A stretch of 64,000 nucleotides of DNA, from the NCBI GenBank assembly GCA_000004985.1, contig GG738846.1; one strand, written 5' to 3'. The translations under genes and the position numbers were made by a program. The notes beneath the pieces were generated by a model. That model was not told the DNA's origin, made no database searches, and saw only the letters and a list, made by a program, of their open reading frames with translations. This stretch comes from Naegleria gruberi (Eukaryota). This document shows, piece after piece, positions 8,632 to 53,364 of this stretch; positions within the stretch are counted from its first letter, which is position 1; each line of letters starts with the position of its first letter.

Positions 8632-10152
8632 ATGAAAATTTCCACAATCAAACAATTAGTACGGGAAGCTAGTGCAAAAAATCGACAACAATCACAAATT
8701 TCAAATCACCGCGACGATGATTCTGATGCAATGACCGTAAGCAATGATGAAGAAATGAAGGAATTCAATTCTTCTGATCAATTAATTTCCAATTCTTCTT
8801 CTTCTTCAACTGCTCCGAAACAAAGAAAGAACAGAAAGAATTATATTACATCAAATTCGTTTTTTTCTAAAACACATTCAATTAAGATGTATGCTGATTT
8901 GTGGTTTTATATTTCGAAATTTATGGATGAACCTTTAAATTACTTTCTTACACAGTTTCGTTTAATTTGTAAACAGGCCTTGGAGGCTGCAAGCAGATAC
9001 ACCAAATTGGAAATGAATGGGATTTATGGAAATAGATTATTTTTAATGATTTGTAATCACATGACCGAACTTAAAGTATTGTCATTAGAGAAACGATTAC
9101 AAAATCGAAAGAAAGTAGGAATTACAGATATAGGTCCATTGAAAAGGGGAAATTTAGAAAAGTTAGAATATTTAAACTTGCAAAATAATTCCATTTCCAA
9201 TGTTACAGCTTTTGGTGTTGCAAAGAATTTGAAAAATTTGAAATATTTGAATTTAAAAGGTAACAAGATTACTACTTGGCAATATTTGGCTAATAAGAAA
9301 TTGAGGAATATCGAATATTTAAATTTGAATAGTAACATGATTACCAGTGTGTACACGTATCTTTATATAGATACCAAATTACCTGAATCCAATTTGAAAA
9401 CTCTCAAATTGGGAAATAACAAGTTGGATGCAATTTTTTTCGTTAACATTAATATGAACTATTTCTCCAATTTAACAAACTTGGATTTGAAATATAATAG
9501 AGAAATTGGTACGATATGGTATAATGGTGAATCGAAATTGGATAAATTGGAGCAATTGAATATTAGTGGAACAAGTATTATCGATCTGACACATGTTCTA
9601 ACTAGCTTTCCAAAATTGAAAATTCTCAAATATGGCAGTGTTGACTATGAAAGCATGACAACAATGAGCAATCTATTGCAAGAATTATCTCCATCCATAG
9701 TCGAAGATACACCACTAAAAAATCAAATTGAGACGCTCTATTTGAATAACATGAAACTAACGTGTGGAAATATTGTAGAGCTCTGCAATCTGAAACTATA
9801 TCAACAATTAACCAAACTAGTCTTGAGTGAGAACAAAATTTGCAACCAATCTATTCAAGTGCTTTCCCAAGTACCAAATCAATTGACTAGCTTGACTGTT
9901 CGTAATTGTTTTCTTAATGATGGTTGTGCCACACATCTATGCTCCTTTCCAAAATTGAAATACTTGGATGTTGCCTGGAATTTCCTCACCAATTCAGGTT
10001 GTAATGTGTTGGTGAGCTCGAATTTGGACCATCTCGATATCACTCACAATACTTACATTGATGCCAAGCTCATTTCAAGTCGGCCAACCAGTATCAAGAA
10101 GATTATTTATGGTTGGGGAAGAACCAACATTCATGAAAGAATTACTCAATAG
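8632..10152 (+). CDS. Leucine-rich repeat protein (506 aa)
   Basis: ATG at 8632. Multiple LxxLxLxxNxI(s/t) units (LEYLNLQNNSISNV, LKYLNLKGNKITTW, IEYLNLNSNMITSV, LTNLDLKYN ...). Confidence 0.6.
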   Translation: MKISTIKQLVREASAKNRQQSQISNHRDDDSDAMTVSNDEEMKEFNSSDQLISNSSSSSTAPKQRKNRKNYITSNSFFSKTHSIKMYADLWFYISKFMDEPLNYFLTQFRLICKQALEAASRYTKLEMNGIYGNRLFLMICNHMTELKVLSLEKRLQNRKKVGITDIGPLKRGNLEKLEYLNLQNNSISNVTAFGVAKNLKNLKYLNLKGNKITTWQYLANKKLRNIEYLNLNSNMITSVYTYLYIDTKLPESNLKTLKLGNNKLDAIFFVNINMNYFSNLTNLDLKYNREIGTIWYNGESKLDKLEQLNISGTSIIDLTHVLTSFPKLKILKYGSVDYESMTTMSNLLQELSPSIVEDTPLKNQIETLYLNNMKLTCGNIVELCNLKLYQQLTKLVLSENKICNQSIQVLSQVPNQLTSLTVRNCFLNDGCATHLCSFPKLKYLDVAWNFLTNSGCNVLVSSNLDHLDITHNTYIDAKLISSRPTSIKKIIYGWGRTNIHERITQ

Positions 10153-10359
10153 TAAATTTATTCAAATTCACAATTATATGTAATAACAAATAGATGAACA
10201 TTTAAAAGTAAAATTAAAACTTTAAAAAAAATGTTTAACAAGTAGGTAGGAAATATTTTCTCTCTCTTTTTATTGAATTCTAAATAATGGAATTGTTATT
10301 GTGATGCCTATCGGAATTAATTGATATAATCCTGGACTAAATATTTATATATATTTTGA

Positions 10360-11529
10360 TTGAATTTACTATTAATATTATCATCATCATATGATATTAG
10401 AATTTTGGGAGGATTAAGTAAAACAAGTATATTTTCAAAAATTGGATCAATTCTAGGAGGTGGAGCAACATCAAGGAAGATATTTAATGAGGAGGATTTT
10501 AAATTGTTGGAAAAGGCTCTTCTCTCGAGTGATGTCGGAAATAATACTACACAATTACTTCTAACAAGGATGAAGACACAAGTATCTGAAATTGAAAAGC
10601 AAATTGAAAATAATCCCACTGCAGAGGAAAATGTCAAACCCATGAAGAATATTCTACGTGAGGAAATGCTGAAATTATTCCAATATCCAATGCAACAACA
10701 AATTGTAAAGAGATTGCAACAAAATCAAGGAACACCTGAGGGTGGAGTTTCCATTCCTTTGATTCCATTAAATCCAAAATCAAGACCAACTGTTGTACAA
10801 ATTTGTGGAGTGAATGGATCTGGAAAGACAACAACTATTGGAAAATTATTACACAAGTATAGAGAATCAGGAACTGTTAGAAATATTGTTGTTGCAGCTG
10901 CAGATACAGTCCGAGCAGCAGCTCCAGATCAATTGAGAACTTGGGTTGAACGTACAAGTGGATGTACTCTCGTCGATTTGACAGAATCTGAAAAATTGAA
11001 AAAACAACACACTACAACTCCTCAACAAGTCAAAGTTAAGAATATTAGACAAGTGAGTTATAAGGTTCCTGCTGAAAGTGTAGTTTATGAAGCCATTCAA
11101 CAAGCTTTGAGAAAGGAAGATGTTGACCTTGTTTTTGTTGACACTGCAGGAAGATTGCAAAATCAAGAAGCTTCAATGAAAGAATTGAGTTTAATTACTG
11201 AAATGTGTTCCAAGTCGAGAAAGGGAGCACCTGATCATACATGGCTCATTCTCGATGGTACAATAGGTCAAAATTCTATACAACAAGCCAAACTATTCCA
11301 AAAGTATGTGAGAATTTCAGGAATTATTGTCACTAAATTGGATGGAAGTGCCAAAGGAGGTGTCATTCTTGCAATTGCCAATGAATTGAAAATCCCAGTT
11401 CTCTACATTGGTTTGGGAGAAAGTGTCAGTGATTTGAAACCTTTTTATCCTGAACAATTTGTTGATTCCATCTTGTCAGTAGCCTCAGCAGAGGAAAAAC
11501 AAACAAAATCAGAAGAGGATGATGAATAA
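10360..11529 (+). CDS. ftsY: Bacterial-type FtsY (SRP receptor GTPase, NG domain) with N-terminal extension, candidate organellar targeting
   Basis: ATG at 10360. The SRP-GTPase motifs align almost position for position with E. coli FtsY. These are G1 GVNGSGKTTTIGKL, AAADTVRAAAPDQL, DTAGRLQN, TKLDGSAKGG, and the closing IPVLYIGLGESVSDLKPF. There is no SRX or SR-alpha N-domain. The roughly 70-aa N-terminus (MNLLLILSSSYDIRILGGLSKTSIF...) has the look of a targeting presequence. Confidence 0.8.
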   Translation: MNLLLILSSSYDIRILGGLSKTSIFSKIGSILGGGATSRKIFNEEDFKLLEKALLSSDVGNNTTQLLLTRMKTQVSEIEKQIENNPTAEENVKPMKNILREEMLKLFQYPMQQQIVKRLQQNQGTPEGGVSIPLIPLNPKSRPTVVQICGVNGSGKTTTIGKLLHKYRESGTVRNIVVAAADTVRAAAPDQLRTWVERTSGCTLVDLTESEKLKKQHTTTPQQVKVKNIRQVSYKVPAESVVYEAIQQALRKEDVDLVFVDTAGRLQNQEASMKELSLITEMCSKSRKGAPDHTWLILDGTIGQNSIQQAKLFQKYVRISGIIVTKLDGSAKGGVILAIANELKIPVLYIGLGESVSDLKPFYPEQFVDSILSVASAEEKQTKSEEDDE

Positions 11530-11600
11530 ATCAATTTAAAATAATAACTATTCGAAATGCATGGCGAATTTAAATGTTTTTTTATGTTTTTTGAAAAAAA

Positions 11601-12562
11601 ATGAAAGAACATGATATTGAACAATTTATTGAATGGTCCCACAACATTGGAGCCTTCAAACATGAAAATATTGACTTGAAATTCATCTCCTCCGAGTGTG
11701 GTATCGGAGGTATTCTAACATCAGACATTCAAGCCTCTGAAGATGATCAAGTGGATTTATTATCTGTTCCTTTGGAAAATTGTTTAAATGTTAGGAATAT
11801 GAATAGGGAATTTAGAGATTTAATATCGGAATTGAAATTAATTGCTGATGGAAATAATGATAAGAATGAAGAACTTGCTTCTCAGTGGAAGGGAACAAAC
11901 ATGTTTGAAAATGGATTAATTGTTTTCTACATGTTTTTAATTTATGAGTTACATGTTGAGAAGGAGAAGAGTACACACTTTCCATATTTGAATTTATTAC
12001 CAAGGGAATTTACTACAGCTCTTTATTTTGATGAAGATGAAATGGCTGCATTGAGATCTACCAATTTGTACAAATCTGTGCAGAGTATTAGACAAAATTT
12101 GAAGCAAATTTACGAAACGAAAGTGGAATATTTAATGAACAAGTATCCACAAAAGTTTGATAGACAAGTGTTTAGTTATGAGAATTTCATGTGGGCTTTT
12201 TCTGCTGTTTGGTCAAGAGTTTTTCCAATTGAATATCCTGCAGAGAATGGAGAAGGTGTGGAAATTGTTCCAACATTATTGCCAACAGTTGACATTTTGA
12301 ATCACAAATTTAATGCCAAGATTACATATTTCACAGGATCTGACAGAAGATTCTACTTGAAAACAAGAGAATCTCTCAAAAGCGGAGACTATGTCTGCAA
12401 CAATTATGGAGCAAAGAGTAATGATTCATTCTTATTGAGTTATGGATTTGTCATTCCAAATAATTCTGAAGACACTCTCTATGTTCAATTTGGTATTTCT
12501 GATGATGGCAATGAAGAATTGGTTCAATTCAAGAAAAAGTATTTGGAAGACAATTCTCTCAA
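11601..12562 (+). CDS. SET-domain lysine methyltransferase, SETD3/SETD6/Rubisco-LSMT-like; exon 1 of 3
   Basis: ATG at 11601. The SET C-terminal signature is ILNHKFNAKITYF ... GDYVCNNYGAKSNDSFLLSYGFVIPNN. The exon ends at 12562 with a GTAAGT donor at 12563-12568. The TAA that closes the raw ORF lies inside that donor. Confidence 0.7.
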
Positions 12563-12603
12563 GTAAGTTTTATAACATCTTTATCTTGATAATATTCCAA
12601 TAG

Positions 12604-13495
12604 TCTTGGATTTTATCTCAAAAAACAACAACTGCCAGAAGACATGCTAGATTCCATTCGTATCTGTATGATGACCGAAGATGATTTTTATCTTGCCAAA
12701 CAATCAACAATCTCTCAACACAGAGAACAATCTAAGGATTCTGTCTACAGATTCAGTGTAAAGAATGAATTCAAAATGCTTCACACACTGAGGTCATTGT
12801 TCATATCAAAGAGACGTCTCTTCCCAACCACTATTGAAGAAGATGAAGAAGAGTTGAGTGAAGAAACCAACTTTAACATGCAAAATATTCTCATTTACAT
12901 AATTGGACAAAAGAAGATTATTGAAAATGCCTTGAAATGCATTGATGAAAAACTCTCTACTTTGCTTGGAACCTATACCAAACTTGTGGACAATAATAAT
13001 CATCAGGAAAATATTCTCCAAACCATGAAGAATATCTTTATTGAAAATAGTGGAAAATTATCTGTGGAAATGAGACCAGAATTGAATTCTTTCCATGCCA
13101 TTTCCAAAGAATCCATCTCAAAAGGTGAAATAGTAATGATTGTCAAATCAGAGGAATTAATAGATGTGGATAATGCTCTTGATTCCCCGTTTGGAGAATT
13201 CTACACTGAGGCAAGAGAGGAGGATCTCAGTGCCAATCTCGATGATGAAATGGCTGTCATGTTTTACATTATGTTTGAAATGTTCTCCTCTCCAAATTCA
13301 CCTCTCAAGTCCAATAATCACAAAAAGTTTTTCAATCTCCTTCTCAAGCATTACAATTTCCAAGAAACTCCATTCCTCTCCGAAAAACTTCAAGATGAGC
13401 TGAGTGGAACCAATACCCTTGATTTGATTCAGAGAACAAGAGATGGACTTTCTGAAGTTTTCGAGGAGATTAAGAGTGCCCTCATACAGTCTGGT
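12604..13495 (+). CDS. SETD3/LSMT-like methyltransferase; exon 2 of 3 (substrate-binding region)
   Basis: A 41-nt intron (12563-12603, GTAAGT ... CCAATAG) joins in phase 2 to the frame of ORF 12644-13525. The exon ends at 13495 before a GTAAGT donor (13496-13501). Confidence 0.6.
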
Positions 13496-13542
13496 GTAAG
13501 TTTTCATTCTCTAATTTTTTACTGAAATTTATATTTTCACAG

Positions 13543-14229
13543 TTGCAAGATGAGGAAAATGTAATGACCTTTGAAAACTTTCTAGTTGCCTATTCAGTAT
13601 TTGATTTGTTCGCTGTTGGATCAGAGACTGTATTACCAATACCAGCAATTTCACAATTAGGCAGCTTTTTGGTTGAGTTTGATGATGGAAATCTTGTGGT
13701 TAAAAGTTTGATTGACATTCCTAAAGATAAGATTATTACCTTCTCTGCCCTTTCACTCACAAAACCAATCGAAGACTTACTCATGTACAACATTTATCCA
13801 ATTGATTATGAATTGGCCTTGCCTAATGTAAAACATGCCATTGGTATTGATTTGGAATCTTTAGAATCTCTCATTACACAACAAAAGCTTGACATTTTGA
13901 ATTTTTTGAACAATTTATCCTTCACTCACTATTTGACAAGAGGTAGAAAGTGTAGCCTTCTTCCAATCCAATTAGGAGTTTTATTTACTACAGATGAGAT
14001 TGCACTTTCAAACCTTCTCAATCAAAAAAAGATTGAAATTAACATGTTTGATTCGTCAGTCATGGAGAATGTGAATCACGTCATTAGTGCAATGGTTGAA
14101 AACTTTGCAAGTGCCTTCTCAGAGAATGAGGAAGCAGTAGAAGAAATCAGAACACTGTCAAGTATAGAACAGAATGCAAAACTCTTCTTTCCTCACTTCT
14201 TTCAGAATAAAAACCTTCAATTTTATTAA
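13543..14229 (+). CDS. SETD3/LSMT-like methyltransferase; exon 3 of 3
   Basis: A 47-nt intron (13496-13542, GTAAGT ... TTTCACAG) joins in phase 0. The ORF-track 'M' at 13543 is a TTG codon, so this is not an independent start. Combined CDS is 2541 nt, about 846 aa. Confidence 0.6.
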   Translation: MQDEENVMTFENFLVAYSVFDLFAVGSETVLPIPAISQLGSFLVEFDDGNLVVKSLIDIPKDKIITFSALSLTKPIEDLLMYNIYPIDYELALPNVKHAIGIDLESLESLITQQKLDILNFLNNLSFTHYLTRGRKCSLLPIQLGVLFTTDEIALSNLLNQKKIEINMFDSSVMENVNHVISAMVENFASAFSENEEAVEEIRTLSSIEQNAKLFFPHFFQNKNLQFY

Positions 14230-28981: not shown

Positions 28982-29034
28982 CTAAATTAAATGATTAATT
29001 ACTATACATGCCAAATATTATCAACAAAACTTAC

Positions 29035-32000
29035 CACCAATGGTTTTAATCTTTTCAAGAGAATAGGTTTCACACAACAAGTCAAACTGGTTGACAATAA
29101 TATTCAACATTTCTACAACTTGGTGTGGTTCCAAATGACTACTCAAACTAGTGAAACCAACAATATCACTAAATAGACAGGTAACATCTTTAAAGTTTTC
29201 ATAAATATTAGTTTCACCTGCTCTTAATCTATTGGCAACAGGTAATGGTAAAATGTTAAGTAAAAGTGCTTCTGATTTGGTTTTTTCTTGTGCCATTAAA
29301 ATGGAATGTTTCAATTCGGAGGTAATATCCTTAATAAAACATGAAATAATAATTGTTCTCTTCTTATCATTAGGATCTCCCAATACTGAAACACATAAAT
29401 TAACTCTTGCTGGGAATGCCTTTCCGTTCTTTCTTTTGGCTTTTAACTTTTCAAATGTTTCTCCAAAGTTGCTAGTAGCATTCTTCATTCTCTCCAGAAC
29501 TGAATTTAGAGTGTCAACAACCTTCTTTTTAGAAAATAGAACAGCCAATCCAGTTCCAATAATTTCTGTAATTCTATAACCAAACATATCTTGTGCAGCT
29601 TGATTGAAAAATCTAATAGAACCATCTACATTACAAATGATAGATCCTTCTACAGTTGAATCAAGGACAGCCTTAACCTGGGAGAATGCTTGTTCATCTT
29701 CCTTATCATTATTTGAATCTTGGAACATTTGTAATATTCTATTCATGCCCTTCAATTTTCGATTCTTTCCATTGTTGCTTGATGCTGTCGAATTGTATTG
29801 ATAGTGAAGAGCATAATCTCTTAATTGATCATTTGAATCGATAAATTCCCATGATACATAATTGAACATAATTCTCATCTGATGGATTTGAGCCCAATAT
29901 CTATTGAACATATTATTACCTAAATAGAATAAAAATAGGCAAGCAATAAATCCAATAGAGGAGAACACTCCTGACAAATATCTGGAAGGATGCTGGTGCA
30001 AATCAACATAGGTATCAATGAAAGCATACAACTTGTAGGCCATAATTTTAGAAGCACTGTAAAATTGCATAAACTTGATATATATATCACGTGGGCCAAT
30101 AGTATGATGATAAGCTTGATTATTCAATTGATCTGCTTGTGAGGCTAACATATCCAATAATTGATCCAATCCATAACAATTATAATCTGTAGAGTTACAT
30201 TGATGACTTTGTACAACTGGAATATTTTCTGAGAGAATGGATTTTCTATTGTTGTACTCTGCTCCGTATATTAAATTGTTCCAAGACTTGACTGTTAGAG
30301 CTAGATAATTTTGGTTAAGTACAAAGTTGGCATCATTTTCATTTGGTTTTAGTGGTGAATCAAACACAATTTCGTCCAATCCAAAGTTTACAACTTGACT
30401 GTTCATTAAAACTCTACCTGCTTCTGCAACATTTAACATGGCCACATACGAATCATCTAAATTCAAGAAGAATTCTGTAATGATCAAGGCACCAGATACA
30501 AATGCAAATACAATAATGAGTAAACTGATTATTAATACAGATCTCTTTGGAGATAGATAGTCTGTTTGAGATTTGTTAACTTCTTCTCTAGTGTCCTTAT
30601 CTAAACGATGGAAAATCTTACCAACTTCATCTTTACCTATTCTCTTGAATAATCTTACAAGATTATTAATTTTACGTAAATGGAAATATAAAACTAGTAA
30701 ATAGCTCAAAGACATTAACAATACAATGGCATTTACACAAACTGCAATAATTATATAAATAACTCTAAGTTCTTGTGCCACCACTTGATTTCTATCAATA
30801 AAATTCACACAAAATGATTCATATGAACGCATGAGAGGTAATCTATTGAGCCACCAAAACATGAAAACATAGGATTCATATGTTTTGTTGTATTGGAAGA
30901 TTGTTGATTCTAACAATGAATCAATATTTGAAATCACTAGTTTAGTAGTTTCAGAGAGAGAGGTATTTCTAATTTCATAAACAATCTGGCCTGGAGTAAC
31001 AATTGGCAAGTACAAAGTAACATCATCATGGGTGAAATCATTTACCATGTCAGTTGTGAATACACCGACTGTTTTAGAGAGTGTTTGTACGGTTCTAGCC
31101 TTATCTTGAAGTGTTTTCAGTCTGTCCTTGTGGGCTGAGAATGATTGCAACAGAGCTGTATCATTAATACCATTAAACTTGATTGTAGATTGAAGTGAAC
31201 GAATACCACTGGCTATCAAATGCGAAACGCTATTCATGGTACAAGCTTGTTTGACAAGGAATACTTTTGAGGAAATTTCATTAGAGAAGGAAATATTTAC
31301 AGCCAAGGTGATTGTAATTAGTGCCAAGCCAAACAATAGGAATACTATGAAAAATCCATAGACAAACTTGTGTTCTTCTGGTACTAGTAATGATGTTCTG
31401 TAGAGCATTTCTTTTTTCTGAGTTGGTGTCACCATATCAGATCCATTTAAACTTTCCTCATCAATTTCCTCATCGAATAAATCAACTGCAGATCTTGGTT
31501 CTTCAGGTGATGTTGGTACTATTGGAACAACCTTGTTGTGTTTGGATGAAATCTTGATTTGGTTTACAGGCTCCCTCTTTCTAACTCTCTTAGATTCTTC
31601 ATCTTCAATTATTTGTGCTTCAAAATACAAGTCAGAAGCCAATTCTTTTTGGAATAGGTAATTTTCTAAAAATCTGGCATAGGTTCTTAGTGCAGTCTTA
31701 TCTCCAGAAAAGTTAGTCATCAAATTTCCAAATAAAACTTCCAGTTCAGCAGTAATCTTTTCAATTTGTTGATTCACTCCAATGATTTTTGAATCGGAAA
31801 CTACTTCATTTTGCAATTCCTTCCAGAATTGTCTGTGGAAGTAGGCCAATTGTTGTTCTTTGGCGTCAATTTTTTGTAATAACATCTTCATTTCCAAATT
31901 ACTTGTGGCATGTCTATTGGATGAAGATGAAATGATTTCCAATTCTTTCAATCTCATTTGAATGAAATATCTGTTCAGAATATTTGGATGTTGTCTGAGT

Positions 32001-33718
32001 GCTCTTTTAATCAAGTGATTTGCATAGATAAACGCATTAGAATCCTCAGAGGCAACAAAGTTTGCAATGAGCATACTTGATGTCAATAGTAAATTAACAT
32101 CTGTAAAACTTTTTTGAGAAGCAGCACCCTTAACAAACAGCATGGCTAAATTGAAATCACCATGCTTTTGTTCGTTGCGTTGAACATTTCTTGCCTTTGT
32201 CATGGCAAATCGAATGAAAATGTTAACACTTCTAAATCGACGTTCTTCTTCGATAACTGAAGCTAAATTATTGACAAATAATGTTGGATCACCCTCTTTG
32301 GATATCTTCCAATTATTTACATCATCAATACCAAGGTACACTGAAAATAAATGCTTTACGCTTCTATAGACAAGTCTGGTATATATTTCCATAGTTACAC
32401 AACCCAAAACAAATAATAAAATAGCAAAGCCAAATGATGCACCAGCCAATGATACTCCAAATATATTGTCATCTAAGTAATTGATTGGTAAGGTAGTCAG
32501 TATTAAAGTTGAAATGGAAAATCCAAGTTTTGCAAATGTAAATCCAGACCATAAACTATTTTCCCATCTATTGAAAAAAGGAAGGGACCTAAATAAAACA
32601 ACAATATACAATAAACTAACTAGAATAGATATAATTGGAACTATATAACTGTACATGCTCGGAATTAAATTTGAAATTATCCAATAAAGTTGATTTGTAA
32701 ATGCAATTACCATTACAAATATCGAATTATCCATTGAACCAAATGAGCCTTCCTTTGGACTGAATTCTATTAACATTAATAATCCCATTTGAGTAATTAC
32801 AAATTGTACAATTAATCCAATCGAAGAAAATACAATCATTACTGTATTCAGTACGCTTGTACACGATTCTTCTCTGTATCTTACAAGGTGTTGTGTCATG
32901 TAATCGCAATTAATAAATGATGTTAGTATATGGGTTATGGGTACTGCTACTACTGTTATTATTATTGTAAGTATTCTTACAAATTGCAGTAATTTCTTTG
33001 TGTGTCTGCTTCCTGTTTTTGTAAATCTATATACTATATAAAGTAATACTCCATTTGATAATAGTAATATAATAAAGAAACTAGCAATTACAACAATACC
33101 AACATATGGTACCTTTTCCATTAACCAAGTTCTCATGAATCCAAATACTAGCATAATCCACCAACCATAATCACCCCATTGATATGATTTAATATCCTCA
33201 TATGGTACAGATAAACTTGAGGAAGTAAGCATGATAAATGTGTAAAAGAGCATGTAAAATATATTTGTTTTAGAAAAGACTCTTCTCAGCTTACCAGAGA
33301 GAGTACGTTGTTGAGCAATGGACCAGGGCTGATTCTTTTCATTCACCCTCTTGGCTGTATTCATCAAGCTTTGTTGCTGTATTCCAACCAGAAATGTTAC
33401 TATATTCTCTTCAAATGCTTTAAATGATTCTGAGGATAGAATTGAAGACCGTGTTGTGGTTGCTGTCCTTGCAGTTCCAGTGTCGGACCCACCTGAACGA
33501 TTACTCATCGTTAAACTTTGTGGACCGTGTGAGAAGTGTCCTTCAATAATCGAATTGGATTCACTTGTATTACTATTATGAAAACTAGGTAGTGGATCTT
33601 CAGTGCTAGCCCTCAATGGATTTACAGTCTGATTTAAATTTGTTAAGGGTACGATGGCTGAACTTTTCCTTGTTCTACCAATAGCACCGACTGCTCCAAG
33701 GGTTGGAAGTGTCGACAT
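29035..33718 (-). CDS. Multi-pass membrane PAS-domain adenylyl/guanylyl cyclase (class III), exon 1 of 2
   Basis: ATG at 33718. There are at least 12 predicted TM helices in two clusters, coiled-coil linkers, then a PAS domain (IICNVDGSIRFFNQAAQDMFGYRITEIIGTGL...). The start of the cyclase homology domain is FSDIVGFTSLSS ... KIKTIGG. The exon ends at a GTAAGT donor. Confidence 0.75.
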
Positions 33719-47980: not shown

Positions 47981-48167
47981 TTTTTTTGAAATTGTAAAGA
48001 TTTTGTATTACTCCTCGTTTGGTGATTTTTTTAATTACCTGAAATAATGTGTTAAATGTCAAAGGTAGCCGTCAGGTTTAAAGGTAGTTCTCCACAAACT
48101 AAAAATTATTAATTTCGCTCAAAATTTATCTAATTACCCGCGAATTGGTAATAAATTGAAAAAAAAA

Positions 48168-51100
48168 ATGTTGGCAAGAAAATTGTTTGGAAAATGCACA
48201 ACAAATAATCGCCATCTCGTATTAAAATCATCGCAATATGCCACAAAATTCTACTCCACAAGTGGTGCTGAAAAAAATTTAGTTGCAAATATTGAGAGTT
48301 GTATAAGAAATATTAATAATCATTATCGGAGTAAGAAAGAAAAAGAATTTAATAACGGTTTGCTGGATTTGAAGCAATTTTGCTCCCAATTAAATGATGC
48401 AACGGAAAGGAAACTAAATGAAAAATCGTGGAATTTTTTGATTCAACAATTTTGTAGAAACGAAGCCTTTAGTGATGAAGCTACATTTTGGTTCAGAAGA
48501 GTTATGAAAGAGAAGAAATTAGCCACTCCAAATTCATTCACTTTGACTGCGATATTAAAATCATTCTCTACTATTGGTGAATTAGATATGTGTGAAGAAA
48601 TTCTACAAGAATTAGAAAGTCAAGGACTATGCAACGTTTTCTCATACATATACTACACAAAAGCTTGTCTTCAAAATGGAAACACTGAGAAGGCTTTCAG
48701 TGTTATTGGACGTATGGAGAGTAAACAAATTGAACCAAGTTTTGGAATATACATTCCTCTTCTAAAGGAAGCAACTAACCAAAATAATGTGGAAGTTGGA
48801 TTGAAACTTTATGATATGATCAAAAAAAGTAACTTGGCAAGTTTTCAATTATCATCTTGTATCGCCACTTTTGCTTTGAAGGTGAACCGACCAGATATTG
48901 CAATCGAAGAATACGAAAAGATTAAACAGAGTGAATTGATGAATGTTATAACTTGGACATGTTTAATTCAAGCATACATTCAACAAAATGATACTGAGAA
49001 AGCAATAGATACGCTTATTGACATGAAAAAACATGGTATATACCCAGATTCTGCAACATTCACAATTTTATTGAGTGCATGTGCAAATTCTAATATGTAT
49101 GAAGAAGGAGTTAAAATTCATGAACTTGCAAAACAAACACTCAAAGATTTCACAATTGGATTATCAAACACAATTATTAATTTTTACACAAAATGTGGTT
49201 ATTCAAATATTGCCATAGAAGAATGTGAAAAATTGAAACAGAACGGATTGATGAATGTTGTAACTTGGACATGTTTAATTCAAGCATACATTCAACAAAA
49301 TGACATTGAGAAAGCAATAGATATGATTATTGACATGAAAAAGCATGGTATTTACCCAGATTCTGCAACATTCACAATTTTATTGAGTGCATGTGCAAAT
49401 TCTAATATGTATGAAGAAGGAGTTAAAATTCATGAACTTGCAAAACAAACACTCAAAGATTTTCAATTAGACTATCAACAGCAACTATTAATTTTTACAC
49501 TAAATGTGGTTATTCAAATATTGCCATAGAAGAATGTGAAAAATTGAAACAGAAAGGATTGATGAATGTTATAACTTGGACATGTTTAATTCAAGCATAC
49601 ATTCAACAAAATGATATTGAGAAAGCAATGAATACGATTATTGACATGAAAAACAGTGGTGTTATACCTAGATTCAACAACATTCACAATTTTATTGAGT
49701 GCATGTGCAAATTCTAATATGTATGAAGAAGGAGTTAAAATTCATGAACTTGCAAAACAAACACTCAAAGATTTCACAATTGAATTATCAAACACAATTA
49801 TTAATTTTTACACAAAATGTGGTTATTCAAATATTGCAATCGAAGAATACGAAAAGATTAAACAGAGTGAATTGATGAATGTTATAACTTGGACATGTTT
49901 AATTCAAGCATACATTCAACAAAATGATATTGAGAAAGCAATAGATACGCTTATTGACATGAAAAAACATGGTATATACCCAGATTCTGCAACATTCACA
50001 ATTTTATTGAGTGCATGTGCAAATTCTAATATGTATGAAGAAGGAGTTAAAATTCATGAACTTGCAAAACAAACACTCAAAGATTTCACAATTGAATTAT
50101 CCAACACAACTATTAATTTTTACACTAAATGTGGTTATTCAAATATTGCCATTGAAGAATGTGAAAAATTGAAACAGAACGGATTGATGAATGTTGTAAC
50201 TTGGACATGTTTAATTCAAGCATACATTCAACAAAATGACATTGAGAAAGCAATAGATATGATTATTGACATGAAAAAGCATGGTATATACCCAGATTCT
50301 GCAACATTCACAATTTTATTGAGTGCATGTGCAAAATCTAATATGTATGAAGAAGGAGTTAAAATTCATGAACTTGCAAAACAAACACTCAAAATATTTT
50401 CTTTAGAGCTATCGACAGCGACTATTAATTTTTATACTAAATGTGGTTATTCAAATATTGCCATTGAAGAATGTGAAAAATTGAAACAGAAAGGATTGAT
50501 GAATGTTATAACTTGGACATGTTTAATTCAAGCATACATTCAACAAAATGACGTTGAGAAAGCACTGAATACGATTACTAATATGAAAAACAGTGGTGTT
50601 GTACCTAACTCAACAACATTCACAATTTTATTGAGTGCATGTGCAAATTCTAATATGTATGAAGAAGGAGTTAAAATTCATGAACTTGCAAAACAAACTC
50701 TCAAAGTTTTCACAATTGAATTATCGCAACACAATTATTAATTTTTACACAAAATGTGGTTATCCAAATATTGCAATCGAAGAATATGAAAAGATTAAAC
50801 AGAGTGAATTGATGAATGTTATAACTTGGACATGTTTAATTCAAGCATACATTCAACAAAATGACATTGATAAAGCAATAGATACGCTTATTGACATGAA
50901 AAAACATGGTATATACCCAGATTCTGCAACATTCACAATTTTATTGAGTGAATGTGCAAATTCTAATATGTATGAAGAAGGAGTTAAAATTCATGAACTT
51001 GCAAAACAAACTCTCAAAGATTTCACAATTGAATTATCAAACACAATTATTAATTTTTACACTAAATGTGGTTATTCAAATATTGCCATAGAAGAATGTG

Positions 51101-53364
51101 AAAAATTGAAACAGAAAGGATTGATGAATGTTGTAACTTGGACATGTTTAATTCAAGCATACATTCAACAAAATGACATTGAGAAAGCAATAGATATGAT
51201 TATTGACATGAAAAAGAGTGGTGTTTACCTAGATTCAACAACATTCACAATTTTATTGAGTGCATGTGCAAATTCTAATATGTATGAAGAAGGAGTTAAA
51301 ATTCATGAACTTGCAAAACAAACTCTCAAAGATTTCACATTTGAACTATCAGACACAATTATTAATTTTTACACAAAATGTGGTTATTCAAATATCGCCA
51401 TTGAAGAATGTGAAAAACTGAAACATAACGGATTGATGAATGTTGTAACTTGGAACTGTTTAATTCAAGCATACATTCAACAAAATGACATTGAGAAAGC
51501 AATAGATATGATTATTGACATGAAAAAGCATGGTGTTGTACCTAATTCAACAACATTCACAATTTTATTGAGTGCATGCGCAAATTCTAATATGTATGAA
51601 GAAGGAGTTAAAATTCATGAACTTGCAAAACAAACACTCAAAGTATTTTCTTTAGAGCTATCGACAGCGACTATTAATTTTTATACTAAATGTGGTTATT
51701 CAAATATCGCTATTGAGGAATGTGAAAAACTGAAACAGAAAGGATTGATGAATGTTGTAACTTGGACATGTTTAATTCAAGCATACATTCAACAAAATGA
51801 TATTGAGAAAGCAATGAATACGATTATTAATATGAAAAAGAGTGGTGTTGTACCTAATTCAACAACATTCACAATTTTATTGAGTGCATGTGCAAATTCT
51901 AATATGTATGAAGAAGGAGTTAAAATTCATGAACTTGCAAAACAAACACTCAAAGATTTCACAATTGAATTATCAAACACAATTATTAATTTTTACACAA
52001 AATGTGGTTATTCAAATATTGCCATAGAAGAATGTGAAAAATTGAAACAGAACGGATTGATGAATGTTGTAACTTGGAACTGTTTAATTCAAGCATACAT
52101 TCAACAAAATGATATGTCAAACACCCACACTCCATCAGATGCAGAATATGGGTTGAATAAGGCATTTAGAGTCTATCAGGAAATGAAACAAAAAAACTTT
52201 GAACCTAACAGTTATACCTTCAGCATTTTAATGGCAGCGTGTGGAGAATATGTAGCTTCAAACATTGGAATTCAAATAATTGAGGATATAAAACAAAACA
52301 ACATGGATATCTATGAAGAGGTTATTTCTGGTATGGTTTATTTTTACTCTAGAGTTGGCCAAAAAGAAACTGCACAACAATTATTTGATAATCTTGTTAG
52401 AAAGAAGGATGAATCAAAAGAACCACTTTCTATCGTCACTTATACTAATATGCTTTCTTGTTATGCACAACACGGTAAAGGATATGAAGCTCAAAAACTG
52501 TTCGATGAAATTGTTGAAAAGAAAGTCAAAATTGATGAAATAACTCTAATAGTATTATTGAATGCATATTCACATTGTGGAATGGTTGAAGAAGCAATTC
52601 AATTATATAATGATATGAAACCAAAACATAATTTTAATCCAACCCTCTCTATTGATTGCGTTATGATTGATGTGTTTTCTCGTGCAGGAAGATTTGAGGA
52701 AGCAGAAAAACTAATAGGTAGTCGCAATGATATTGGTTTGTGGGGCGCATTGATGGGAGGATGTAGAAAATTCAATAAGATTGAACTTGGTGAAAAAGTA
52801 TTTAACAAAATGACAACAATTGATGAAAAACTAACCTCACCCTATATATTATTATCCCATATCTACACATATCATGGATTAAACGAAAAAGCTAACAAAT
52901 TGCAAAAATTGATGCGAAAAAGAGGTATAAAAAAATTGCCTGGTATTGTGTATCATGAAGAAAATGGCATTGTATTTAGATTTATTTCTGGATCTGACGA
53001 CCACAAAGAGGACTCTCAAATGTTTGCACAAATTGAGAGAATGAGAGATGAAATATTTCGTAAAATTATTAAGGCTGGATATAGACCAGATACAAGATGG
53101 GTTACCAGAACCGAATCATTGTCAGAGGAGGAAAAAGTTAATTTGCTTTATCGACATGCTGAAAAAACAGCCATTGCTCACGCCTTTGTTTTGAATCCAA
53201 ATAGAAAGAAAATAGTATTAACAAAAAATCTGAGAGTTTGCAATGATTGCCATTCGGCTACTACGTACATTTCAAAAGTGATGGATGTTGAAATTATTGT
53301 AAGAGATGCCAATAGGTATCATCATTTCAAAGATGGAAAATGTAGTTGTGGTGGTTATTGGTAA
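48168..53364 (+). CDS. PLS-type pentatricopeptide repeat protein with C-terminal E/DYW cytidine-deaminase domain; reading frame broken by three 1-nt indels (pseudogene or assembly error)
   Basis: ATG at 48168 (the track start at 48156 is TTG). The N-terminus MLARKLFGKCTTNNRHLVLKSSQYATKFYSTS looks like a mitochondrial presequence. There are about 10 tandem 105-aa units (a P-L-S PPR triplet: ...NVVTWTCLIQAYIQQNDIEKAIDMIIDMKKHGIYPDSATFTILLSACANSNMYEEGVKIHELAKQ...). The C-terminus carries HAEKTAIAHAF ... CNDCH ... CSCGGYW, which is the HxE/CxxCH zinc-binding DYW signature. Frame breaks: a 1-nt deletion near 49465, a 1-nt insertion near 49665, and a 1-nt insertion near 50715. Confidence 0.7.
48880..52110. 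repeat. Tandem array of ~10 near-identical 315-bp units (coding PLS triplets)
   Basis: By eye, units such as 49107-49421, 50027-50341 and 51687-52000 differ at only a few percent of positions. Confidence 0.8.

What the first reader, a model, noticed from the sequence alone, without database searches (positions are those of the whole stretch)
10360..11529. Bacterial-type FtsY in a eukaryotic nuclear genome, with an N-terminal extension but no SR-alpha SRX domain
The NG domain is collinear with E. coli FtsY through all GTPase boxes and the C-terminal IPVLYIGLGE motif. It lacks the eukaryotic SR-alpha N-terminal domain. Eukaryotes normally keep a bacterial-type FtsY only for plastid cpSRP. In an aplastidic amoeboflagellate lineage, a nuclear FtsY with a presequence-like N-terminus would be a component of a relic mitochondrial SRP pathway. 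Mitochondrial Ffh/FtsY has been reported for some discobid protists.
Basis: partly seen in the sequence, partly recalled or inferred. Interest (0 to 1): 0.7.

Follow-up and report, generated by a model that had tools for sequence, protein, structure and literature searches.

The report
Naegleria mitochondrial FtsY gene, already published

Summary
The ORF at 10360-11529 (+) is real and is a bacterial-type FtsY: Pfam SRP54 GTPase E=2.5e-60 plus the SRP54_N helical bundle, with all G1-G5 motifs intact. The window is Naegleria gruberi nuclear DNA. The TTG start is not used, and the first 14 codons of the ORF are intron. The true gene is ATG 10231, an 11-nt exon 1 (10231-10241), a 159-nt GT..AG intron (10242-10400) and exon 2 (10401-11529). 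Its 379-aa product begins MFNKILGGLSKT. That N-terminus aligns with the very start of short bacterial FtsYs, so there is no extension. There is also no SRX domain and no room for one: the upstream gene's ORF ends 78 nt before the ATG. The spliced protein is identical, residue for residue, to the revised NgFtsY (mtFtsY, XP_002682642.1) of Pyrih et al. 2021 (Mol Biol Evol 38:3170). Those authors showed mitochondrial localisation by LOPIT proteomics and by expression in Trypanosoma brucei. They also identified the mtFfh partner on another contig and ran the phylogeny. My own tests agree: bacterial FtsY scores 160-177 bits and a direct SR-alpha comparison 90 bits, and the top 43 structural matches are all FtsY or cpFtsY.

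The parts
10231..10241 (+). Exon 1 of mtFtsY: ATG TTT AAC AA (M F N and two bases of K4).
   Evidence: It is the only upstream ATG that gives an open frame when spliced. N. lovaniensis and Willaertia magna have the same mini-exon. The product matches the published revised sequence.
10242..10400 (+). Spliceosomal intron: 159 nt, GTAGGT...TATTAG, phase 2, GC 0.23 against 0.36 in exon 2.
   Evidence: The intron sits at the same codon in N. lovaniensis (172 nt) and W. magna (65 nt). The paper lists 1 intron for this gene.
10401..11529 (+). Exon 2 of mtFtsY, from the last base of codon 4 to the TAA stop. Together with exon 1 it encodes 379 aa.
   Evidence: The spliced product is identical to Table S1 of PMC8321541.
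10231..10488 (+). N-terminal 30 residues (interrupted by the intron): MFNKILGGLSKTSIFSKIGSILGGGATSRK. They carry net charge +5, have no acidic residue and are rich in Ser/Thr/Gly. They align with the N-terminal 'GLxKT' segment at the start of short bacterial FtsYs. This is the presumed mitochondrial import signal and/or membrane-binding helix.
   Evidence: Alignment; composition; low model confidence. The published N-terminal leader fusion localises to T. brucei mitochondria.
10438..10626 (+). N domain (SRP54_N helical bundle), protein residues about 17-79.
   Evidence: Pfam PF02881, E=3.8e-05. The model shows helices with pLDDT >90.
10693..10770 (+). Insertion 1, in the N-G linker (residues 102-127, QQQIVKRLQQNQGTPEGGVSIPLIPL). 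It is absent from bacterial FtsY.
   Evidence: Alignment; lower pLDDT (about 60); coordinates.
10783..11475 (+). G domain (SRP54-type GTPase), residues about 132-362.
   Evidence: Pfam PF00448, E=2.5e-60, matched in two stretches. NCBIfam TIGR00064 ftsY is the best hit.
10807..10830 (+). G1 P-loop GVNGSGKT.
   Evidence: invariant columns.
10903..10935 (+). G2 / insertion-box motif DTVRAAAPDQL. D172, R175 and Q181 are invariant across the alignment.
10981..11070 (+). Insertion 2 in the G domain (residues 198-227, TESEKLKKQHTTTPQQVKVKNIRQVSYKVP). It is shared by Naegleria and Willaertia. It is absent from bacterial FtsY and short or absent in Neovahlkampfia and Pharyngomonas mtFtsY.
   Evidence: The model has pLDDT <50 here. 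The insertion splits the Pfam and NCBIfam matches in two.
11140..11154 (+). G3 DTAGR.
11332..11343 (+). G4 TKLD, within the bacterial-type TKLDGSAKGG. Human SR-alpha has TKFDTIDDKVGA here.
11410..11421 (+). G5 GLGE, within IPVLYIGLGE.
11479..11526 (+). Acidic C-terminal tail VASAEEKQTKSEEDDE. The Naegleria and Willaertia orthologues also have an acidic tail; bacterial FtsYs do not.

Best explanation
This is the Naegleria gruberi nuclear gene for mtFtsY (NgFtsY, GenBank XP_002682642.1 in a truncated model). It is the mitochondrial, bacteria-derived receptor of an RNA-less mitochondrial signal recognition particle. Shown here or in print: the gene has two exons and encodes a 379-aa FtsY made only of the N and G domains, with intact GTPase motifs. 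It has no SRX domain and no acidic A domain. The protein is found in the mitochondrial fraction, and its N-terminal leader directs a reporter into T. brucei mitochondria. Inferred: after import, the basic N-terminal segment holds the protein at the inner membrane, as the homologous amphipathic segment does in bacterial FtsY. There its NG domain forms a GTP-dependent heterodimer with the NG domain of mtFfh, which has bound a signal-peptide-like N-terminal segment of a mitochondrially encoded membrane protein emerging from the mitoribosome. Reciprocal GTP hydrolysis releases the pair, and the nascent chain is handed to Oxa1 (the YidC homologue), because SecYEG is absent.
For: Identity. The top database hit is 'predicted protein [Naegleria gruberi]' at 100% identity. 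The spliced product is identical over 379 aa to the revised NgFtsY of Pyrih et al. 2021. The downstream SET-family neighbour is as the paper states. The published locus is ACER01000034.1:330136-331575.

Family. Pfam SRP54 scores 2.5e-60 and SRP54_N also matches. The best NCBIfam hit is TIGR00064 ftsY at 245.9 bits, against 159 for ffh. PDB phmmer gives bacterial FtsY 160-177 bits, cpFtsY 158-167 and archaeal FtsY 111-118, with SR-alpha not in the top 60 shown. BLASTP gives 196 bits and 36% identity to a bacterial FtsY, against 90 bits and 29% to a verified human SR-alpha NG domain. The AlphaFold model has pLDDT 83, and its top 43 Foldseek hits in the PDB are all FtsY or cpFtsY. The catalytic motifs are invariant.

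Eukaryotic nuclear origin. The spliceosomal intron sits at the same codon in three species. The neighbours are eukaryotic genes: LRR, WD40 and SET.

Localisation, partner and proposed mechanism are published: LOPIT, T. brucei fusions, MS peptides upstream of the old start codon, mtFfh, absence of SRP RNA, absence of SecY, and Oxa1 as the candidate insertase.
Against: No functional assay exists for the pathway. GTPase activity, the complex with mtFfh, membrane association, the substrates and the Oxa1 hand-over are all inferred by analogy. Localisation was tested only in a heterologous host, plus fractionation proteomics. Targeting predictors disagree for NgFtsY: TargetP mTP 0.022 ('other'), MitoProt 0.669, MitoFates 0.699, Predotar 0.38. 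The published trees do not resolve which bacteria mtFtsY comes from; an alphaproteobacterial origin is merely not rejected. The TIGR00064 score falls 15 bits below the curated cut-off.
Confidence: 0.9

Rival explanations
1. [quoted passage not shown] Alternatively it feeds the mitochondrial TAT translocase. In either case it would not target mitoribosome-nascent chains co-translationally.
For: The authors raise both options. Heteroloboseans keep mitochondrial TAT subunits. Like seed-plant cpSRP, the system lacks SRP RNA.
Against: [quoted passage not shown] Phylogenetic profiling found no cpSRP43-like co-factor. N-termini of some mitochondrially encoded N. gruberi proteins behave as signal peptides in T. 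brucei. Nothing in the window bears on this question.
Confidence: 0.15
2. The ORF is bacterial contamination or a recent horizontal transfer into the assembly, not a long-standing eukaryotic gene.
For: Outside Heterolobosea, the named database hits are bacterial FtsYs at 35-48% identity.
Against: The gene needs a GT..AG intron to obtain a start codon, and that intron is at the same codon in N. lovaniensis and Willaertia magna. It lies 78 nt downstream of a eukaryotic LRR gene and 71 nt upstream of a SET-family gene. Its GC content (0.36) matches the window. Orthologues at 71-83% identity exist in four other heterolobosean sources. The published trees give a monophyletic eukaryotic mtFtsY clade spanning four eukaryotic lineages.
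Confidence: 0.01
3. It is a divergent ER SRP receptor alpha subunit whose SRX domain is encoded by an unrecognised upstream exon.
For: None, beyond membership of the same GTPase superfamily.
Against: BLASTP to a verified human SR-alpha NG domain gives only 90 bits and 29% identity over the G domain, against 196 bits to a bacterial FtsY. It has the bacterial TKLDGSAKGG motif, not the SR-alpha TKFDTIDDKVGA. The upstream ORF is an LRR protein with no SRX hit, and it ends 78 nt before the ATG. N. gruberi has a separate SR-alpha that fractionates with ER markers.
Confidence: 0.01
4. It is a plastid-type cpFtsY, a remnant of a lost plastid.
For: cpFtsY chains score almost as high as bacterial FtsY (158-167 against 160-177 bits). 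They also give the highest TM-scores (0.70-0.72).
Against: The published ML trees place mtFtsY apart from cpFtsY. The protein fractionates with mitochondria. Naegleria has no plastid (established knowledge). Sequence scores at this distance do not separate cpFtsY from other bacterial-type FtsYs, so my own data are neutral on this point.
Confidence: 0.02

Closest known systems
mtFtsY (NgFtsY) of Naegleria gruberi, Pyrih et al. 2021, Mol Biol Evol 38:3170 (PMC8321541); GenBank XP_002682642.1
   Same: It is the same gene. The 379-aa product is identical, with the same single intron and the same downstream SET-family neighbour.
   Different: Nothing differs in the sequence. The public GenBank model is still the truncated 319-aa version that starts at Met61 (P0001).
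Short bacterial FtsY (NG-only, e.g. Thermotoga maritima 1VMA, Thermus aquaticus, Chloroflexota)
   Same: The N and G domains are collinear from residue 1. Identity is 35-43%. All GTPase and insertion-box residues are conserved, and the N-terminal basic 'GLxKT' segment is present.
   Different: It is nuclear-encoded with an intron and is imported into mitochondria. It has two insertions (residues 102-127 and 198-227) and an acidic C-terminal tail. Its partner SRP lacks RNA, and no SecYEG is available.
Chloroplast cpFtsY (Arabidopsis 2OG2/3B9Q/5L3R)
   Same: It is a bacterial-type organellar FtsY encoded in the nucleus, working with an SRP54/Ffh that lacks SRP RNA in seed plants. The sequence and fold scores are similar.
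   Different: It works in a different organelle and belongs to a separate clade in the published trees. cpFtsY works with a SecYEG equivalent and, for post-translational insertion, with Alb3; here SecYEG is absent. The plastid system is nearly universal, whereas the mitochondrial one survives in four lineages.
Eukaryotic SRP receptor alpha (SR-alpha, human 5L3Q_B)
   Same: It is an SRP-family NG GTPase that acts as a receptor.
   Different: There is no SRX domain. Identity is only 29% and the score 90 bits over the G domain. The G4 region is of the bacterial type. N. gruberi has its own ER SR-alpha.

Membership tests
Bacterial-type FtsY (SRP receptor GTPase) | N (helical bundle) plus G (SRP54-type GTPase with insertion box) domain architecture | tested here: met
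   Pfam PF02881 and PF00448. The AlphaFold model's top 43 Foldseek hits are all FtsY or cpFtsY, TM 0.76-0.89 normalised to the target.
Bacterial-type FtsY (SRP receptor GTPase) | Intact G1-G5 motifs and insertion-box catalytic residues (D, R and Q of DTxRAAAxxQL) | tested here: met
   These columns are invariant in alignments of 11 and 28 sequences; coordinates.
Bacterial-type FtsY (SRP receptor GTPase) | Scores as FtsY rather than Ffh/SRP54, archaeal FtsY or SR-alpha | tested here: met
   TIGR00064 ftsY 245.9 bits against ffh 159.1. PDB phmmer: FtsY 160-177 bits, archaeal FtsY 111-118, Ffh/SRP54 about 93-115. SR-alpha 90 bits against bacterial FtsY 196 bits.
Bacterial-type FtsY (SRP receptor GTPase) | Reaches NCBIfam's curated equivalog cut-off for TIGR00064 | tested here: inconclusive
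   The score is 245.9 bits against a cut-off of 260.7. The match is split in two by insertion 2. The cut-off is tuned for prokaryotic annotation and is not a biological criterion.
Bacterial-type FtsY (SRP receptor GTPase) | GTP-dependent heterodimer with Ffh and reciprocal GTPase activation | not testable with these tools
   This needs biochemistry with NgFfh.
mtFtsY clade (Pyrih et al. 2021) | Sequence belongs to the published clade | tested here: met
   It is identical to the published NgFtsY. It is 71-83% identical to N. lovaniensis, Willaertia magna and two unnamed environmental orthologues, one of which resembles the N. fowleri sequence in Table S1.
mtFtsY clade (Pyrih et al. 2021) | Nuclear gene with a spliceosomal intron and/or eukaryotic neighbours | tested here: met
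   The intron at 10242-10400 is conserved in position in three species. The neighbours are LRR and SET-family genes.
mtFtsY clade (Pyrih et al. 2021) | Mitochondrial localisation | not testable with these tools
   Published: LOPIT co-purification and T. brucei mNeonGreen fusions. Composition of the first 30 residues is compatible: +5 net charge and no acidic residue.
mtFtsY clade (Pyrih et al. 2021) | Co-occurring mtFfh partner in the same genome | not testable with these tools
   There is no second SRP-type GTPase in this window (tblastn). The paper places mtFfh on ACER01000115.1.
Eukaryotic SR-alpha | N-terminal SRX (longin-like) domain that binds SR-beta | tested here: not met
   The product and the upstream ORF give no SRX hit. 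Only 78 nt separate the upstream gene's ORF end from the ATG. The N-terminus aligns with residue 1 of short bacterial FtsYs.
Eukaryotic SR-alpha | SR-alpha/archaeal-type NG sequence | tested here: not met
   It scores 90 bits and 29% identity to the verified human SR-alpha NG domain.
Chloroplast cpFtsY | Groups with plastid FtsY and is targeted to a plastid | tested here: inconclusive
   Pairwise and fold scores do not separate cpFtsY from bacterial FtsY. I ran no tree with cpFtsY. The published ML trees separate the two clades.

The most novel reading that the evidence does not exclude
NgFtsY has no added presequence: its N-terminus is collinear with residue 1 of short bacterial FtsYs. The mitochondrial import signal may therefore be the ancestral basic N-terminal segment that in bacterial FtsY serves as the lipid-binding membrane-targeting helix. 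That segment would have been taken over as an uncleaved import signal and would then tether the receptor to the inner membrane. This would explain why presequence predictors give mixed answers. It would also be an example of a bacterial membrane-binding helix pre-adapted to act as a mitochondrial targeting signal. The evidence does not exclude it. There is no extension. The first 30 residues carry +5 net charge and no acidic residue. The N-terminal leader is sufficient for import in T. brucei. TargetP says 'other'. The most N-terminal MS peptide shown starts at residue 30, which neither proves nor excludes cleavage.
Probability: 0.3. Interest if true: 0.35.

Novelty: already known. Interest (0 to 1): 0.15.

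Why it matters
A mitochondrial SRP pathway is an unusual ancestral trait. It suggests that the last eukaryotic common ancestor still used bacterial co-translational targeting in its mitochondrion, and that most lineages later lost it. That point was made in 2021 with this very gene. What this re-examination adds is practical. The correct gene model is 10231..10241 joined to 10401..11529, while the public GenBank protein is still the 319-aa truncation. The 'presequence-like extension' in the raw ORF is intron. The real protein has no N-terminal extension over short bacterial FtsYs and carries two lineage-specific insertions.

Tried and rejected
1. I first placed the start codon one base off (10232), which gave a product beginning CLTR. 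Listing every ATG corrected it to 10231.
2. I looked for an organellar Ffh partner or any other SRP-type GTPase in the 64-kb window by tblastn. Nothing scored better than E=0.036. The partner is on another contig.
3. Rfam and tRNA scans of the window found nothing, and in particular no SRP RNA.
4. I did not run my own tree with cpFtsY and archaeal FtsY. I could not obtain verified cpFtsY sequences with the tools, and a neighbour-joining tree with one long SR-alpha branch would not be informative. I used pairwise and profile scores and the published ML trees instead.
I re-ran it with the exon-2 translation, residues 5-379.
6. I considered that insertion 2 might compensate for the missing SRP RNA. 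This is unlikely, because Neovahlkampfia and Pharyngomonas mtFtsY lack it or have only a short one, and Percolomonas has different insertions at that site.
7. Helical hydrophobic-moment analysis of the N-terminus was equivocal: 0.17 in N. gruberi, and 0.46-0.49 in N. lovaniensis and Willaertia.

Full report
**What is in the sequence.** The window is AT-rich (GC 0.29-0.37) and packed with long ORFs for eukaryotic-type proteins: WD40, LRR, SET/Rubisco-LSMT-like, RCC1-kinase, BRCT and PPR-DYW. An uninterrupted frame runs from 10360 to 11529 on the + strand. Its product matches Pfam SRP54 GTPase (PF00448, E=2.5e-60) and the SRP54_N helical bundle (PF02881, E=3.8e-05). The observation of an FtsY-like NG domain is therefore real and far beyond chance.

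**Organism and identity.** The best database hit is 'predicted protein [Naegleria gruberi]' at 100% identity. It is a 319-aa model that starts at an internal methionine (P0001). Orthologues at 71-83% identity come from N. lovaniensis, Willaertia magna and two unnamed environmental sequences. The next hits are bacterial FtsYs at 35-48% identity.

**Gene model.** The TTG at 10360 is only the ORF finder's bacterial start. A TGA lies directly upstream at 10357, and the first in-frame ATG inside the ORF is at 10570, which would delete most of the N domain.
- Splicing an 11-nt exon (ATGTTTAACAA, 10231-10241) through a 159-nt GT..AG intron (10242-10400, GC 0.23) onto 10401 gives a 379-aa protein beginning MFNKILGGLSKT.
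- The annotated N. lovaniensis and W. magna genes have the same mini-exon and a phase-2 intron in the same codon, 172 nt and 65 nt long.
- The spliced protein is identical over all 379 residues to the revised NgFtsY in Table S1 of Pyrih et al. 2021. The authors confirmed that revision by PCR on the transcript's 5' end and by MS peptides lying upstream of the old start.

**No SRX domain and no extension.** The upstream gene's ORF (an LRR protein) ends at 10152, 78 nt before the ATG, and has no SRX match. In alignment, residue 1 of the real protein lines up with residue 1 of short bacterial FtsYs: MFNKILGGLSKTS against MGIFRSGLAKTRQ.

**Bacterial type, not SR-alpha.**
- The best NCBIfam model is TIGR00064 ftsY (245.9 bits against 159.1 for ffh). 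It falls 15 bits under the curated cut-off because an insertion splits the match.
- Against PDB sequences, bacterial FtsY scores 160-177 bits, cpFtsY 158-167 and archaeal FtsY 111-118. No SR-alpha chain appears in the top 60 shown, which end at 93 bits.
- I verified a recalled human SR-alpha NG sequence as matching PDB chains 7obq_y and 5l3q_B over its full length. BLASTP to it gives 90 bits and 29% identity over the G domain only. A Chloroflexota FtsY gives 196 bits and 36% across the whole NG domain.
- The G4 region reads TKLDGSAKGG as in bacteria, not TKFDTIDDKVGA.
- An AlphaFold model (pLDDT 83, pTM 0.83) has FtsY or cpFtsY as its top 43 Foldseek hits in the PDB.
- G1 (GVNGSGKT), DTVRAAAPDQL, G3 (DTAGR), G4 (TKLD) and G5 (GLGE) are all conserved, so the GTPase is probably active.

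**Lineage-specific features.**
- There are two insertions relative to bacterial FtsY. Residues 102-127 lie in the N-G linker, and residues 198-227 lie in the G domain. Both are modelled with low confidence.
- Insertion 2 is short or absent in Neovahlkampfia and Pharyngomonas mtFtsY and different in Percolomonas. It looks like a tolerant loop rather than a conserved functional addition.
- The Naegleria/Willaertia group also has an acidic C-terminal tail.
- The first 30 residues carry net charge +5, have no acidic residue and have 7 Ser/Thr, a composition like that of a presequence.

**What is already known.** Pyrih et al. 2021 (PMC8321541) found NgFfh and NgFtsY in the LOPIT mitochondrial proteome of N. 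gruberi and corrected both gene models. They showed that the full-length proteins and their N-terminal leaders take mNeonGreen into the T. brucei mitochondrion. They also found that:
- N. gruberi's own SRP54 and SR-alpha fractionate with ER markers.
- mtFfh and mtFtsY occur in Heterolobosea, Hemimastigophora, Alveida and Goniomonas.
- mtFtsY forms a clade among bacterial FtsY, separate from cpFtsY and SR-alpha. Its bacterial source is unresolved, and an alphaproteobacterial origin is not rejected.
- There is no mitochondrial SRP RNA.
- SecYEG is absent, so Oxa1 is the likely insertase.
- The published locus is ACER01000034.1:330136-331575, and mtFfh lies on ACER01000115.1. That agrees with my finding of no second SRP GTPase in the window.

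A full-text search found no later paper on mtFtsY.

**Mechanism.** Shown: the protein is a nuclear-encoded, NG-only FtsY with intact GTPase motifs that is located in mitochondria. Inferred by analogy with bacterial SRP: it docks at the inner membrane through its basic N-terminal segment and forms a GTP-dependent heterodimer with mtFfh carrying a mitoribosome-nascent chain. GTP hydrolysis then releases the pair, and the chain passes to Oxa1. A post-translational mode like that of cpSRP, or a link to TAT, remains possible but is less favoured.

**Rivals.** Contamination or recent transfer is excluded by the conserved intron, the eukaryotic neighbours and the matching base composition. A divergent SR-alpha is excluded by the score comparisons and the lack of room for an SRX domain. 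A plastid-type cpFtsY is not excluded by my scores alone, but the published trees and the localisation exclude it.

**Verdict.** The start coordinate and the 'extension' are wrong. The finding rediscovers a published, experimentally localised gene. Novelty: already known. Interest: 0.15. The one modestly novel reading left open is that the ancestral membrane-binding N-terminus itself serves as the import signal.

Noticed in passing
window 48156..53364 (+), tandem repeat 48895..52112: A PPR-E-DYW deaminase gene (Pfam DYW_deaminase E=1.2e-37, E motif, many PPR motifs) contains a 312-bp tandem repeat of 10.3 copies at 91% identity. Each unit is 104 aa, about three PPR motifs. The coding region is split over three overlapping or adjacent ORFs (48156-49529, 49656-50741, 50635-53364), so there are introns, frameshifts or assembly problems inside the repeat. 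DYW-type PPR proteins and C-to-U mitochondrial editing are known in Naegleria (own knowledge), but such a young internal PPR-triplet amplification is unusual.
   Followed up: partly
window 10570..11529; protein P0001: The public GenBank/UniRef model for this gene (319 aa, 'predicted protein [Naegleria gruberi]') still starts at internal Met61. It lacks the first 60 residues, that is the targeting segment and half of the N domain.
   Followed up: yes
L001 and L002 compared with window 8632..14229: Gene order around mtFtsY is not conserved. N. gruberi has an LRR gene upstream and a SET-family gene downstream. N. lovaniensis has actin upstream and an FKBP gene downstream. Willaertia magna has a methyltransferase upstream and an FKBP gene downstream. 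The FKBP neighbour is shared by the latter two but not by N. gruberi.
   Followed up: partly
window 11601..14229 (+): Three consecutive same-strand ORFs (11601-12566, 12644-13525, 13543-14229) look like one SET/Rubisco-LSMT-like gene split by short introns. The middle ORF matches the Rubisco LSMT substrate-binding domain (E=5.2e-09). This corresponds to the 'SET family protein' that the paper names as the downstream neighbour.
   Followed up: partly
protein P0006 (JGI metagenome contig of 1431 nt): An environmental 301-aa protein is 46-49% identical to NgFtsY. It shares the mtFtsY-specific GAPDHTWLILDGTIGQ stretch, has a much shorter insertion at the insertion 2 position (G domain, residues 198-227) and has its own insertion before G3. 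It is probably an mtFtsY from an unsampled heterolobosean-like protist.
   Followed up: no
window 29021..33718 (-): A 1565-aa ORF has TPR-like and PAS domains and the start of an adenylate/guanylate cyclase catalytic domain at its C-terminal end. The cyclase domain is cut off at the ORF end, so the gene probably continues past an intron.
   Followed up: no
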